Virus genome (UHGV): UHGV-0126577
Direction: 5' to 3' (one strand)
Source: a virus
Length of the DNA: 28,400 bases
The translations under genes and the position numbers were made by a program. The notes under the pieces were generated by a model. It was not told the DNA's origin. It saw only the letters and a program-made list of their open reading frames with translations, and did no database searches. Every line of letters begins with the position of its first letter. Within the stretch, counting starts at the first letter, position 1. Of this stretch, positions 16,551 through 26,413 are shown piece after piece.

Positions 16551-16587
16551 TTGACATTTAACGCGTTAATTATTACCTTTCAGGTAA
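16551..16587 (+). promoter_or_regulatory. Promoter-like -35 TTGACA with operator TTACCTTTCAGGTAA
   Basis: Perfect TTGACA at 16551-16556. The block TAATTATTACCTT is shared with the PL-like promoter near 26379. Palindrome TTACC-N5-GGTAA at 16573-16587. Orientation is uncertain: it could serve the plus-strand tRNA cassette and/or the minus-strand structural operon. Confidence 0.35.
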
Positions 16588-16909
16588 CTAAAGAGCTCAT
16601 TCCGGTTACTAACCTGACTGGCTTGTCGTTAAATTGAACAGGTGGAGTGAGCTTTTATTTTGAGCAGTACGGCGTATGGCACATGCGACGATAGCGGTCT
16701 GGATACGTTTAAGGGGCACCCTCCCTTGCTCGGGCAAACGAACCAGGTAGCCGGAATGTGCAAGTCGAGCGGTTTTATTCCGCGCACGGGGATTCACCAT
16801 CCCGGCTATTCGGTGTGACGCCTCGGAAGAGACGAGGGTACAACGATGAGAGCATTTATGGAGCCGCGACAAAGTGTGGCGCCTTAACAGGCTAAGTGCT
16901 CTCAGCGTT

Positions 16910-16986
16910 GTGGCATTAGCTCAGTCGGACAGAGCAACCGCCTTCTAAGCGGTTGGTCGCAGGTTCGAATCCTGCATGCCACGCCA
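16910..16986 (+). tRNA. tRNA-Arg (anticodon UCU)
   Basis: Cloverleaf folded by hand: acceptor GTGGCAT/ATGCCAC (7 bp), D-stem GCTC/GAGC, anticodon stem ACCGC/GCGGT with loop CTTCTAA (anticodon TCT at 16944-16946), T-stem GCAGG/CCTGC with loop TTCGAAT, discriminator G and an encoded CCA. Confidence 0.85.
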
Positions 16987-17184
16987 GAATCACGCCTAAG
17001 GACCGTGATGCCAGAAGTTCCAGGTGCTTGGCGGTGATGGTTTCCCTTGAAGGACTATCACCGCCCTTTTTACAGCAGGACGCCATTGCGATGACTTCAT
17101 GCTGTAAACCAGTACAGCCACGGAAGGCATAACTCATTGCTTCCAGTTCGCCCGGTTCGCCGGGCATTTTTTTAAGGTGAGATC

Positions 17185-17607
17185 ATGAAAACAGCCGACA
17201 TGCTAGCTAAATATCTAAATGAATGGCCGTGCAAATATGTACGCATTGTTCAGGGTGATGATTCAATTTTTTATGGTGTTTTTGCAGGAAATGAAATGCT
17301 TTGTGAAGCAATTCCAGGTGAGCGACTTGCCGGGTTAACGCTTAGCGATGACCATGGAATAGGAGTTACTTGCCATGACTGGATTTCAGCGCAGAAAACT
17401 GAAATGGAAAAAGGCAATGTGTTTGATATTTCTCGCGCTGTATACGCCAAAGAAAAAAGTGATGATGATTACATGCGCGAAAACTTATACAACATGAAGT
17501 TACAATGCCTGGCTGAAGTGCTTAGTAAAAGATCTTTACTTGATGTGGTTGGTGCTGAGCAGGACGCCAAGGCAATCAACGCCGCATTCGATAAAATAAC
17601 CTTCTAA
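17185..17607 (+). CDS. Orphan protein linked to the tRNA (140 aa), function unknown
   Basis: Strong SD AAGGTGAG 5 nt upstream of the ATG. Opposite strand to the flanking structural and terminase genes. Followed by a strong terminator. Moderately AT-rich. Confidence 0.65.
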   Translation: MKTADMLAKYLNEWPCKYVRIVQGDDSIFYGVFAGNEMLCEAIPGERLAGLTLSDDHGIGVTCHDWISAQKTEMEKGNVFDISRAVYAKEKSDDDYMRENLYNMKLQCLAEVLSKRSLLDVVGAEQDAKAINAAFDKITF

Positions 17608-17610
17608 CGC

Positions 17611-17624
17611 CGTGACATGTCACA
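17611..17624. repeat. Perfect palindrome CGTGACATGTCACA, copy 1
   Basis: The 12-bp core GTGACATGTCAC is its own reverse complement. An identical 14-mer occurs at 19829-19842. Confidence 0.8.
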
Positions 17625-17627
17625 ATC

Positions 17628-17652
17628 AGCCCGCCGATTCGCGGGCTTTTTT
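17628..17652 (+). terminator. Rho-independent terminator
   Basis: AGCCCGC-cgattc-GCGGGCT hairpin followed by TTTTTT. The T-run overlaps the terminase large subunit stop codon (convergent genes). Confidence 0.7.
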
Positions 17653-25295: not shown

Positions 25296-25526
25296 TCATG
25301 AGTAGAAGAAGTATGCCAGTTCTGCTTTTGAGCGCAGCCATTGTCTTGTTTTACAGGCTTTAAAAAGCCCATTCATCAATACTTTACCTGGCATTTTTCG
25401 CTTACCTGTTAAGTGAGTCTGGATATAGTGACTCGTCGTTCCGGCTTCCTGTGCGAAGGCTTCACGCTCATCCGGAGTAAGTGCAAGCCAGTGCTTTTTG
25501 AAATCGAAATGTCCGTTATCGCTCAT
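25296..25526 (-). CDS. Cro-like HTH regulator (76 aa)
   Basis: First gene of the minus-strand early operon, divergent from the CI-like gene. Helix-turn-helix-like segment REAFAQEAGTTSHYIQTHLTGKRK. Confidence 0.55.
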   Translation of the reverse strand: MSDNGHFDFKKHWLALTPDEREAFAQEAGTTSHYIQTHLTGKRKMPGKVLMNGLFKACKTRQWLRSKAELAYFFYS

Positions 25527-25562
25527 AGCTATTGCCTGATATTTATTTCAGATAATAAATAT

Positions 25563-25625
25563 TCACCCATAAGGTAACAAAAATCAAGAATAGTTACCTA
25601 TGAGGTGCATTTACCTGTTGGGTAA
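25563..25625. promoter_or_regulatory. OR-like tripartite operator with divergent promoters
   Basis: Three palindromes: TCACCCATAAGGTAA 25563-25577, TTACCTATGAGGTGC 25594-25608, TTACCTGTTGGGTAA 25611-25625. Minus-strand promoter candidate: -35 TTGTTA, 17-nt spacer, -10 TATTAT, with the first operator in the spacer. Confidence 0.5.
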
Positions 25626-25680
25626 TATTGCTTTAAATTGAATCATCTACTGATTCATATATGAGGCGATTTTCCAGAAA

Positions 25681-26265
25681 ATGAAAAGTATCCAGGACGT
25701 CCGCAGGCAAAATCTCAACGACTTGATCGACCGTGAATTCAATGGTGTTCAGACGCGGATGGCTGAAAAACTTGGAACTCAGGCAAATCTGGTAAACCGC
25801 TGGGCTCTTGGCAAGAAGGTTATCGGCGACCAGGTTGCACGAAAAATTGAAGCTGCCGCCAATAAACCCCGTAACTGGCTTGATATCGATCGCTCGCTTT
25901 CTCAGGAAGGTTTTCAGCCTGTCGGCCCAAGCGACATTGGCCAGCTGGCGGCTCACAACCTGGAACGCTGGATGAGCGAAAGCCGCGACCTTTCAACACA
26001 GGGAAAACTTCACCGCGCATCCGGCGTAGCCCAGGTGACAATCAGCCGCCTATTAAACAATGAGGTCAGCGTTTCCATTTCCACCCTGGAGAATGTTGCA
26101 TCCGCATTCGGGCGTCACGGCTATGAATTACTGATTCACCCGCACGACCCTGCGACCATCAACTATGATCGCTCGCGCTACGCATTGTTACCCGAAACCG
26201 AGAAAGCAAAGATCGAAAGTTACATTGAATTTGTCATCAACCAGAACGAAAAAAACAAACAATAA
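25681..26265 (+). CDS. CI-like repressor with two HTH domains and no S24 peptidase domain (194 aa)
   Basis: XRE-type HTH at about aa 20-70 (...VQTRMAEKLGTQANLVNRWALGKKVIGDQVARKIEAAANKPRNWL...) and a second HTH-like segment at about aa 110-160. No Ser-Lys autocleavage domain by size or sequence. Divergent from the cro-like gene. Confidence 0.65.
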   Translation: MKSIQDVRRQNLNDLIDREFNGVQTRMAEKLGTQANLVNRWALGKKVIGDQVARKIEAAANKPRNWLDIDRSLSQEGFQPVGPSDIGQLAAHNLERWMSESRDLSTQGKLHRASGVAQVTISRLLNNEVSVSISTLENVASAFGRHGYELLIHPHDPATINYDRSRYALLPETEKAKIESYIEFVINQNEKNKQ

Positions 26266-26285
26266 AACCATATTTTTCAGTAAGT

Positions 26286-26309
26286 AAGCCGCCTTATGGC
26301 GGCTTTTTT
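26286..26309 (+). terminator. Rho-independent terminator after the CI-like gene
   Basis: AAGCCGCC-ttat-GGCGGCTT hairpin followed by TTTTTT. Confidence 0.7.
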
Positions 26310-26322
26310 ATTGCCTATTCGA

Positions 26323-26413
26323 TTACCTAACGGGTAATTTTTTTAACTCATATCTATTGACATCAAACCATATAAGCATAATTATTACCTTAACGGTAAC
26401 AGACCGAGGTAAC
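26323..26413 (+). promoter_or_regulatory. PL-like promoter with OL-like operators
   Basis: Operators TTACCTAACGGGTAA 26323-26337 and TTACCTTAACGGTAA 26385-26399, plus a half-site GAGGTAA at 26406-26412. Perfect -35 TTGACA at 26357-26362, 17-nt spacer, -10 AATTAT at 26380-26385. Confidence 0.5.

What the first reader, a model, noticed from the sequence alone, without database searches (positions are those of the whole stretch)
16573..26413. Dispersed operator family TTACC-N5-GGTAA at nine or more sites, including positions outside a classical OL/OR pair
Fifteen-bp palindromes are seen at 16573, 23219, 23281, 25226, 25563, 25594, 25611, 26323 and 26385, with a half-site at 26406. Consensus is TTACCT-NNN-(C/G)-(A/G)-GGTAA. 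Three cluster between the cro-like and CI-like genes and two precede the recombination operon, as expected for a lambda-type switch. The others lie inside the early-right operon and beside the tRNA cassette and late operon, suggesting one repressor directly controls more promoters than in lambda.
Basis: seen in the sequence. Interest (0 to 1): 0.6.

Follow-up and report, generated by a model that had tools for sequence, protein, structure and literature searches.

The report
Prophage repressor operators, ε15/phiV10 type
The repeated TTACC-N5-GGTAA palindromes are real and are the binding sites of the prophage's master repressor, scattered in front of nearly every operon, but the same sites are already annotated in the closely related Salmonella phage ε15, so this is an ordinary, known feature.

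Summary
TTACC-N5-GGTAA occurs 7 times exactly (0.02 expected) and 10 times with at most one mismatch (0.38 expected). All 10 lie in the roughly 7% of the window that is intergenic. It is the only recurrent palindrome family in the window. The "half-site" at 26406 is a ribosome-binding site.

The window is a phiV10-like prophage (genus Uetakevirus, about 98% identical). The ε15 GenBank record already annotates ATTACC-N5-GGTAAT as "repressor" binding sites at orthologous, dispersed positions: terS, the head operon, the tailspike, PL, and after the replication genes.

The repressor (25681-26265) is 42% identical over its full length to SPC32H Rep (PDB 5D50). That protein is a tetramer inactivated by an antirepressor. 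It is not a λ CI-type self-cleaving protein.

Sites sit at the same places in phages and prophages of E. coli, Salmonella, Enterobacter, Klebsiella, Citrobacter, Erwinia, Superficieibacter and Scandinavium. Half-sites are invariant and spacers vary freely. Two promoters are each bracketed by an operator pair spaced exactly 62 bp apart.

The interpretation of one repressor gating many operons directly is supported. The feature is already known and of low interest.

The parts
25681..26265 (+). Prophage repressor gene (Rep, 194 aa). It has an N-terminal HTH DNA-binding domain, a middle HTH-like domain and a C-terminal tetramerisation/Ant-binding domain.
   Evidence: It is 42% identical over its full length to SPC32H Rep, PDB 5D50 (E = 4e-42). 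Pfam finds HTH_3 only and no peptidase S24 domain. The helix NLVNRW is invariant among the four aligned Rep proteins (window, Tyrion, ε15, SPC32H).
25296..25526 (-). Cro-like gene (76 aa), divergent from rep.
   Evidence: Matches phrog_35 'transcriptional repressor' at E = 5.6e-13. It has no Pfam hit. It is followed by its own terminator at 25255-25274.
25611..25625 (.). O3, a perfect operator (TTACCTGTTGGGTAA), 56 nt upstream of the rep ATG.
   Evidence: The sequence is identical in all 80 viral contigs that carry this Rep.
25594..25608 (.). O2, a degenerate operator with two mismatches (TTACCTATGAGGTGC).
   Evidence: It aligns with a perfect site in ε15 and SPC32H.
25563..25577 (.). O1, an operator with one mismatch, lying in the spacer of the cro-like promoter. 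Candidate promoters are -35 TTGATT (25582-25587) or TTGTTA-17-TATTAT (25552-25580).
   Evidence: The TTGATT -35 is invariant in five genomes. O1 lies 48 bp from O3 in 82 site pairs.
26323..26337 (.). PL distal operator (perfect), just after the rep terminator (26286-26305).
26357..26385 (+). PL promoter: TTGACA-17-AATTAT. The last T of the -10 hexamer is the first T of the proximal operator.
   Evidence: Matches 10 of 12 consensus positions. CTATTGAC is invariant across five genomes.
26385..26399 (.). PL proximal operator (perfect), covering the end of the -10 hexamer and the start site. It lies 62 bp from the distal operator.
23281..23295 (.). Distal operator (perfect) of the promoter that follows the replication genes. 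It sits just after the terminator at about 23308-23328.
23233..23261 (-). Promoter of the DUF1064/ead operon: TTGATT-17-TTTAAT. Its geometry is identical to PL.
   Evidence: Read. At this offset, 120 of 121 distinct 62-bp modules carry a TTGAxx hexamer.
23219..23233 (.). Proximal operator (perfect), 62 bp from the distal one. It contains the Shine-Dalgarno sequence of the DUF1064 gene (ATG at 23215).
25226..25240 (.). Single operator with one mismatch (GTACC half). It lies between the cro terminator and a candidate promoter, TTGATC-17-CAAAAT (25180-25208), of the replication operon.
   Evidence: Phage phiV10 and Tyrion carry the same mismatch; Superficieibacter has a one-mismatch site at the same place (TTACCTGAGAGGTAG, mismatch at the same position, different base). 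The site is absent from ε15-type genomes.
It lies between terminator 19771-19788 and the terS ATG at 19716.
   Evidence: It is orthologous to the ε15 annotated repressor site at 12-27.
19719..19733 (.). Weak second terS site (one mismatch), 18 bp downstream. It overlaps the terS Shine-Dalgarno sequence (GGTGG).
   Evidence: The 18-bp spacing is seen 70 times. It may owe part of its match to the ribosome-binding site.
16573..16587 (.). Operator (perfect) upstream of the gp3-portal-capsid late operon, 91 nt before the ATG at 16482.
   Evidence: It is orthologous to the ε15 annotated repressor site at 2931-2947.

Best explanation
**Identity.** The palindromes are the operators of the prophage master repressor Rep (25681-26265). 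Rep is a homologue of ε15 gp38 and SPC32H Rep.

**Recognition (inferred).** Each 15-17-bp site, (A)TTACC-Y-N3-R-GGTAA(T), would be recognised by a pair of N-terminal HTH domains of the Rep tetramer.

**Genome organisation (shown by sequence and comparison).** The genome is divided by rho-independent terminators into separate transcription units. Most of these units carry their own operator or operators.
- At PL and at the promoter after the replication genes, two operators lie exactly 62 bp apart, about six helical turns. They bracket a sigma-70 promoter. The proximal operator starts on the last base of the -10 hexamer and so covers the start site.
- At the cro-like promoter, one operator lies in the -35/-10 spacer and two more lie 31 and 48 bp upstream, towards rep.
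- Single sites, or a strong plus a weak site, stand before the replication operon, terS and the head operon. In related complete genomes they also stand before the tailspike/ant region, the lysis genes and int.

**Mechanism (inferred).**
- In a lysogen, Rep occludes RNA polymerase at the promoter-proximal sites.
- One tetramer, which has two DNA-binding units, may clamp each 62-bp pair.
- At terS, the sites lie between a terminator and the start codon and no promoter is recognisable. There Rep may block read-through instead.
- Induction would follow the SPC32H route: a LexA-controlled small antirepressor (Ant) disassembles Rep and releases all units at once. The ant gene lies outside this window.
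For: **Statistics.** The motif is strongly non-random and exclusively intergenic.

**Prior annotation.** The ε15 GenBank record labels seven ATTACC-N5-GGTAAT sites 'protein_bind: repressor' at dispersed positions orthologous to those here.

**The repressor.** Rep aligns over its full length with SPC32H Rep (PDB 5D50) at E = 4e-42. Citing papers describe that protein as a DNA-binding tetramer that recognises palindromic sites and is dismantled by Ant (PMC9638917). They also describe a looping-type tetramerisation domain with its two pairs of middle (dimerisation) domains about 100 Å apart (PMC9986798).

**Conservation of position.** Sites occupy the same positions in phiV10, ε15, SPC32H, Tyrion, an E. 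coli F11 prophage, and prophages of Superficieibacter, Erwinia, Klebsiella, two Citrobacter species and Scandinavium. Rep identity across these ranges from 41% to 100%.

**Selection footprint.** Among 80 contigs with identical Rep, the half-sites stay fixed while the central 5 bp vary freely.

**Rigid spacing.** Neighbouring sites are 62 bp apart in 160 cases, 48 bp in 82 and 18 bp in 70.

**Promoter bracketing.** In 121 distinct 62-bp modules, a TTGAxx -35 hexamer sits at a fixed offset in 120 (alignments).

**Specificity link.** Distant homologues that share only the DNA-binding domain have a different recognition helix and no such sites within 10 kb.

**Induction circuit.** In the closely related F11 prophage (97-99% identical over the two 3-kb end segments compared), an Ant 88% identical to SPC32H Ant is preceded by a LexA box, CTGT-N8-ACAG.
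Against: - No binding experiment could be done here.
- The primary papers (Kropinski 2007; Kim & Ryu 2013; Kim et al. 2016) are not in the held library, so I could not check which sites have been tested.
- The ε15 annotation is probably itself bioinformatic.
- The cro-like protein co-occurs with the motif in every genome, so comparative data cannot separate Rep from Cro as the binder.
- No convincing sigma-70 promoter is seen next to the terS or gp3 sites, so what these single sites actually block is uncertain.
- A 62-bp loop is very tight. Bridging by a single tetramer is inference only.
Confidence: 0.85

Rival explanations
1. The sites are bound mainly, or also, by the Cro-like protein (25296-25526). 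The dispersed copies would then serve to turn transcription down during lytic growth rather than to maintain lysogeny.
For: - The protein matches a PHROG 'transcriptional repressor' family.
- Its gene is divergent from rep across the three-operator region, as in λ, where CI and Cro share operators.
- The cro-like gene is better conserved between phiV10-type and ε15-type phages than rep is, in line with the unchanged motif.
Against: - The ε15 record assigns the sites to the repressor.
- Rep's putative recognition helix is invariant among the four aligned Rep proteins whose genomes carry the motif.
- Repression of late operons is what a prophage needs.
- The two readings are not exclusive.
Confidence: 0.3
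2. The single sites before terS and the head operon are not promoter operators. They are roadblocks ('stoperator'-like) that stop transcripts leaking through upstream terminators.
For: - The terS sites lie between a strong terminator (19771-19788) and the start codon, with no recognisable promoter in between.
- The 25226 site directly follows the cro terminator.
Against: - The sites are palindromic and show no orientation bias, unlike L5 stoperators.
- The gp3 site is followed by a 90-nt invariant block that could hold an activator-dependent promoter.
- TACTAT precedes the terS site in the same register as the -10 hexamers at PL.
Confidence: 0.25
3. The dispersed copies are chance or composition-driven palindromes, or by-products of ribosome-binding sites (AGGTAA). 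Only the sites around rep would be functional.
For: Several GGTAA halves coincide with Shine-Dalgarno sequences: 23219, 19719 and the 26406 half-site.
Against: - Shuffles give 0.02 exact matches against 7 observed.
- Half-site density equals that of the host, but full palindromes are absent from 59 kb of host DNA.
- The dispersed sites are conserved in position across hosts of eight genera, while their spacers change.
Confidence: 0.03

Closest known systems
Repressor-binding sites of Salmonella phage ε15 (gp38), as annotated in GenBank AY150271.2
   Same: The motif is the same, ATTACC-N5-GGTAAT. The positions are orthologous: before terS, before gp3/portal, the PL pair and after the replication genes. 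The genus and gene order are the same.
   Different: The ε15 record lists only 7 of its 12 exact sites and omits the rep-cro trio. ε15 has a third PL site 76 bp downstream and lacks the site after the cro terminator. The phiV10 record, the nearest named phage (98% identical), annotates no operators at all.
SPC32H Rep/Ant switch (PDB 5D50, 5D4Z; Kim & Ryu 2013; Kim et al. 2016)
   Same: Rep is homologous over its full length at 42% identity. It has the same three-domain layout and no self-cleavage domain. A related prophage carries an Ant 88% identical to SPC32H Ant, preceded by a LexA box.
   Different: The ant gene is outside this window. The window instead carries an extra P22 immI-like module (sar RNA, an Arc-family gene and a truncated AntA-like ORF). 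I could not read the primary papers, so I do not know which operators they tested.
Phage λ CI/Cro with OL and OR
   Same: The repressor and cro-like genes are divergent with three operators between them. There are operators at the leftward promoter. The half-sites are palindromic and an HTH domain is the likely reader.
   Different: Rep has no S24 peptidase domain and, by homology, is a tetramer removed by an antirepressor. PL has two operators that bracket the promoter at 62 bp, rather than three adjacent ones. Operators also stand before the replication, middle and late operons.
Repressors with many dispersed sites: P1 C1 operators and mycobacteriophage L5/L1 gp71 'stoperators'
   Same: One prophage repressor acts directly at many places around the genome, so the idea is not new. 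PMC1934351 (abstract) covers the mycobacteriophage case. The P1 C1 case is from my own knowledge.
   Different: Those sites are asymmetric, and for L5 they depend on orientation and lie within operons. The sites here are palindromic and sit at operon boundaries. There is no protein homology.
Loop-forming tetrameric regulators (LacI; Rco of pLS20, which shares the TetDloop fold)
   Same: Paired operators are on the same face of the helix, and the tetramer has two separate DNA-binding units (PMC9986798).
   Different: The 62-bp spacing is at the short extreme for a loop. Bridging was not tested.

Membership tests
ε15/SPC32H-type Rep-operator immunity system (Uetakevirus) | Repressor homologous over its full length to SPC32H Rep (DNA-binding, middle and C-terminal tetramerisation domains) | tested here: met
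   phmmer against PDB 5D50 gives E = 4e-42 over residues 1-190. BLASTP gives 42% identity.
ε15/SPC32H-type Rep-operator immunity system (Uetakevirus) | Operators of the form ATTACC-N5-GGTAAT | tested here: met
   There are 7 exact and 3 one-mismatch sites. They match the sequences under the ε15 'repressor' protein_bind features.
ε15/SPC32H-type Rep-operator immunity system (Uetakevirus) | Sites at the syntenic positions (terS, gp3/portal, PL, rep-cro, after the replication genes) | tested here: met
   Scans and alignments of phiV10, ε15, SPC32H, Tyrion, the F11 prophage and six further species.
ε15/SPC32H-type Rep-operator immunity system (Uetakevirus) | Repressor lacks a RecA-dependent self-cleavage (S24) domain | tested here: met
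   Pfam finds only HTH families.
ε15/SPC32H-type Rep-operator immunity system (Uetakevirus) | Small LexA-controlled antirepressor Ant | tested here: inconclusive
   The gene is not within the window. In the closely related F11 prophage, Ant is 88% identical to SPC32H Ant and is preceded by CTGTATAAATATACAG.
ε15/SPC32H-type Rep-operator immunity system (Uetakevirus) | Rep physically binds the sites and represses the adjacent promoters | not testable with these tools
   This needs gel-shift, footprinting, ChIP or reporter assays. The primary papers are not held.
λ-type CI/Cro switch | CI with a C-terminal LexA-like S24 peptidase domain cleaved on RecA activation | tested here: not met
   No peptidase domain is found. 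The C-terminus aligns with the Rep tetramerisation/Ant-binding domain.
λ-type CI/Cro switch | Divergent repressor and cro genes separated by a tripartite operator | tested here: met
   The sites at 25563, 25594 and 25611 lie between rep and the cro-like gene.
λ-type CI/Cro switch | Operators confined to OL and OR, with later genes reached by an antitermination cascade | tested here: not met
   Additional conserved sites lie at 25226, 23219/23281, 19737/19719 and 16573.
Mycobacteriophage L5-type stoperators | Asymmetric, orientation-dependent sites inside transcribed operons | tested here: not met
   The sites are perfect palindromes and lie at operon boundaries after terminators.

The most novel reading that the evidence does not exclude
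The rigid 62-bp operator pairs are each clamped by a single Rep tetramer, with the whole core promoter held in a roughly six-turn micro-loop. They bracket the promoter in 120 of 121 distinct modules. Together with the single operators in front of every late operon, this would make the entire lytic programme directly repressor-gated, with no λ-style transcriptional cascade. Release of Rep by Ant would then fire all units at once. I could not establish whether Kim et al. 2016 already proposed or tested the two-site clamping model.
Probability: 0.3. Interest if true: 0.4.

Novelty: already known. Interest (0 to 1): 0.2.

Why it matters
The practical value is mostly in annotation. The phiV10 record and the hundreds of phiV10-like E. 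coli prophages carry no operator features. RefSeq's terS start runs through a terminator and two operators. The ε15 record lists only part of the set.

Biologically, the result confirms that in this common prophage genus the repressor sits in front of most operons rather than only at an OL/OR pair. That fits an antirepressor-triggered, all-at-once induction.

The fixed 62-bp promoter-bracketing geometry is a clean, testable handle on how the structurally characterised Rep tetramer engages DNA. A 2023 paper says this is still not well characterised (PMC9986798).

Tried and rejected
**Primary literature.** I tried to read Kropinski 2007 (DOI, PMC2698709 and PubMed id), Kim & Ryu 2013 (PMC3807360) and Kim et al. 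2016 (PMC4983836). None is held. A full-text search for the consensus I recalled from memory, ATTACCWDWWNGGTAAT, found nothing. The ZX5 paper names PL and PR but identifies no operators.

**Two-mismatch matches.** These are at noise level, apart from 25594.

**Half-site at 26406.** Rejected as an operator. It is the ribosome-binding site of the first PL gene.

**Late and rep promoters.**
- I looked for sigma-70 promoters at the terS and gp3 sites, using the consensus scan and by eye. None was convincing.
- The rep promoter itself could not be placed. I therefore cannot say whether O3 activates or represses rep.
- The promoter-like hit on the + strand at 23247-23274 (AAGACA-16-TATAAT) runs antisense into the replication gene. 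I treated it as a by-product of the AT-rich inter-operator DNA.

**Surveys of Rep relatives.**
- The viral-contig survey with Rep returned only 100%-identical repressors. It was useful for the spacer-variation footprint but not for co-variation.
- Diversity came from the genome-contig scan instead.
- Distant homologues sharing only the DNA-binding domain (Paraburkholderia, Hydrogenovibrio, Thiomicrospira) have no such sites and no obvious alternative palindrome.

**Other checks.**
- Pfam gave nothing for the cro-like protein, even at E = 10.
- One inverted-repeat call failed on a parameter limit. I replaced it with my own enumeration.
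Full report
**1. The observation**

The exact pattern TTACC-N5-GGTAA occurs seven times in the 28.4-kb window: 16573, 19737, 23219, 23281, 25611, 26323 and 26385. Dinucleotide-preserving shuffles give 0.02. With one mismatch allowed there are ten matches against 0.38 expected; the additions are 19719, 25226 and 25563. With two mismatches there are 26 against 8, so that tier is mostly noise.

Six are perfect, two have one mismatch, and 25594 has two.

An unbiased enumeration of all k-gap-k palindromes finds this as the only recurrent family in the window. 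All ten good sites lie in intergenic DNA, which I estimate at about 7% of the window.

In 59 kb of E. coli chromosome there is no exact match and there are two one-mismatch matches. A complete related prophage of 39.9 kb has nine and fourteen. The density of isolated half-sites is the same in both, 2.9 per kb.

**2. What the window is**

The immunity region is 98% identical to Escherichia phage phiV10 and its relatives, genus Uetakevirus, the ε15-like podoviruses. The window is in reverse orientation relative to the phiV10 record.

Closely related prophages sit at the 3' end of guaA in hundreds of E. coli genomes.

The window runs from a tail/antirepressor region at its left end, through the head genes, terminase and early-right genes, to the cro-like gene, rep and the recombination genes.

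**3. The motif is already annotated in the genus**

The phiV10 record carries no operator features. The ε15 record (AY150271.2) carries seven 'protein_bind: repressor, lysogeny' features:
- before terS;
- before gp3/portal;
- before the tailspike;
- three between the repressor gene and the first leftward gene;
- one after the replication gene.

Their sequences are ATTACC-N5-GGTAAT, the same motif as here. From memory, the ε15 genome paper gives the consensus ATTACCWDWWNGGTAAT. I could not open that paper to confirm this.

**4. The repressor**

ORF 25681-26265 (194 aa) aligns over its whole length with SPC32H Rep, PDB 5D50, at E = 4e-42 and 42% identity. Pfam sees only HTH domains and no S24 peptidase.

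Papers that cite the SPC32H work describe Rep as follows:
- It binds palindromic sites as a tetramer.
- Its DNA-binding pairs come from different dimers.
- It is dismantled by a tetrameric antirepressor, Ant, rather than cleaved (PMC9638917).
- It has a looping-type tetramerisation domain, with the two pairs of middle (dimerisation) domains about 100 Å apart.
- The way it represses genes 'has not been extensively characterized' (PMC9986798).

So 'CI-like' is right as a role but wrong as a mechanism.

In the closely related F11 prophage, an Ant 88% identical to SPC32H Ant is preceded by a LexA box. That gene lies outside this window.

**5. Comparative evidence**

*Position.* Sites occupy the same positions in phiV10, ε15, SPC32H, Enterobacter phage Tyrion and the F11 prophage. 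The same holds in prophages of Superficieibacter, Erwinia dacicola, Klebsiella pneumoniae, Citrobacter werkmanii, C. braakii and Scandinavium, whose Rep proteins are 41-75% identical to this one.

*Related complete genomes.* These also show sites before the tailspike/ant region, the lysis genes and int.

*Selection footprint.* Among 80 viral contigs with an identical Rep, the half-sites are fixed while the central five bases vary widely.

*Spacing.* Spacing is rigid. Neighbouring sites are 62 bp apart in 160 cases, 48 bp in 82 and 18 bp in 70.

*Specificity.* Homologues that share only the N-terminal domain have a different putative recognition helix (not NLVNRW). They have no such sites within 10 kb.

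**6. Anatomy in the window**

Terminators follow rep (26286-26305), the cro-like gene (25255-25274), the replication gene (about 23308-23328) and the last early-right gene (19771-19788). The units are therefore insulated from each other.

*PL*. The order is:
- rep terminator;
- distal operator at 26323;
- 19 nt;
- TTGACA;
- 17 nt;
- AATTAT, whose last T is the first base of the proximal operator at 26385.

*Promoter after the replication genes*. The geometry is identical:
- distal operator at 23281;
- 19 nt;
- TTGATT;
- 17 nt;
- TTTAAT, overlapping the proximal operator at 23219, which also holds the ribosome-binding site of the DUF1064 gene.

Over 121 distinct 62-bp modules from all loci, the hexamer at the -35 offset is TTGAxx in 120.

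*Between rep and cro*:
- O1 (25563) lies in the spacer of the cro-like promoter, whose TTGATT -35 is invariant.
- O2 (25594) is degenerate here but perfect in ε15 and SPC32H.
- O3 (25611) is perfect and lies 56 nt before the rep ATG.

I could not place the rep promoter, so the sign of autoregulation at O3 is open.

*Site at 25226.* It follows the cro terminator and lies 17 nt upstream of a candidate promoter, TTGATC-17-CAAAAT, for the replication operon.

*terS.* The sites at 19737 and 19719 lie between a terminator and the real terS start (ATG at 19716). No convincing promoter lies in between.

*Head operon.* The site at 16573 is followed by a roughly 90-nt block that is almost invariant across the genus, up to the gp3 start.

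*Half-site at 26406.* It is the ribosome-binding site of the first PL gene.

**7. Mechanism**

Shown by sequence and comparison:
- There is one conserved palindrome family.
- It always accompanies this Rep family.
- It is positioned on or beside promoters at operon boundaries, with fixed helical phasing.

Inferred:
- Rep tetramers bind these sites.
- They occlude the -10/+1 region at PL and the middle promoter, and the spacer at the cro promoter.
- One tetramer may bridge each 62-bp pair.
- The single late sites either occlude activator-dependent promoters or block read-through.
- Ant releases everything at once.

Rivals are listed separately. The Cro-like protein may share the sites; this is not exclusive and cannot be separated by comparison, because it co-occurs everywhere. 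The late sites may be roadblocks. The chance or ribosome-binding-site explanation is refuted except for the half-site and perhaps 19719.

**8. Comparison and novelty**

This is a member of the ε15/SPC32H Rep-operator system. Every defining feature testable here was met. The ant gene is outside the window, and binding is untestable with these tools.

It resembles λ in having divergent repressor and cro genes with a three-part operator. It fails the λ tests for a self-cleaving CI and for operators confined to OL and OR.

The general idea of one prophage repressor acting at many dispersed sites is long known. P1 C1 is one example, from my own knowledge. Mycobacteriophage L5/L1 is another (PMC1934351).

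The dispersed distribution is already recorded in the ε15 GenBank entry. I therefore rate the finding as already known and of low interest.

Details that may not have been described:
- the exact 62-bp promoter-bracketing geometry;
- the full count of sites;
- the incomplete or absent annotation in the ε15 and phiV10 records.

Noticed in passing
window 1-1195 (sar RNA at 405-472, + strand): This is a P22 immI-like module. It has an Rfam sar antisense RNA hit (45.2 bits against a 43-bit threshold). It is flanked by a truncated AntA-type antirepressor ORF (1-402, - strand), a small ORF (476-643, - strand) and an Arc-family gene (734-1195, + strand). This would be a second antirepressor system in addition to the SPC32H-type Ant. 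It carries no TTACC-N5-GGTAA sites.
   Followed up: partly
window 19830-19841, with ORF 19838-20185 (- strand): A perfect 12-bp palindrome, GTGACATGTCAC, overlaps the stop codon of a 115-aa Cys-rich protein (phrog_536, 'transcriptional regulator'). A terminator, the terS operators and terS follow. The palindrome is conserved in phiV10, ε15, SPC32H and Tyrion, and the phiV10 and Tyrion GenBank records are linearised inside it. The layout recalls λ Q-PR'-tR', so this may be the late-gene control point.
   Followed up: partly
window 16483-16572: A block of about 90 nt between the head-operon operator and the gp3 start codon is almost invariant across E. coli, Salmonella and Enterobacter phages, although the DNA upstream of the operator is unrelated. 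It could be a promoter plus a structured leader. It has no Rfam match.
   Followed up: partly
window 24494-24630: Iteron-like tandem repeats lie inside the replication initiator gene (24115-24930): a 24-bp unit x 2.6 copies at 100% match, an 18-bp unit x 3.1 and a 12-bp unit x 2.4. This is probably the replication origin, as in the lambdoid O genes.
   Followed up: no
window 19716-19797: In the phiV10 GenBank record and in RefSeq's annotation of the related F11 prophage, terS is annotated from an upstream TTG, corresponding to 19797 in the window. That reading frame runs through the terminator and both operators. The start homologous to ε15's is the ATG at 19716.
   Followed up: yes
L002 (ε15) 24704, 33341, 33358, 35969: The ε15 GenBank record annotates only 7 of its 12 exact sites. 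The two exact sites of the trio between the repressor and cro-like genes, the site upstream of the holin gene and the proximal middle-promoter site are unannotated.
   Followed up: yes
L005 42764; L001 26870; L002 26882; L003 26960; L004 28568 (outside the window): A one-mismatch site (TTACCTTAAAGGTAT or close variants) lies upstream of the integrase gene (about 45 nt in the genomes checked) in nearly every genome examined. Rep may also control int, or the site may be part of attP architecture.
   Followed up: no
window 16910-17167: ORF 16916-17167 (- strand), the equivalent of phiV10 p04, overlaps tRNA-Arg(TCT) at 16910-16986 (+ strand) in antisense. It is probably not a real gene.
   Followed up: no
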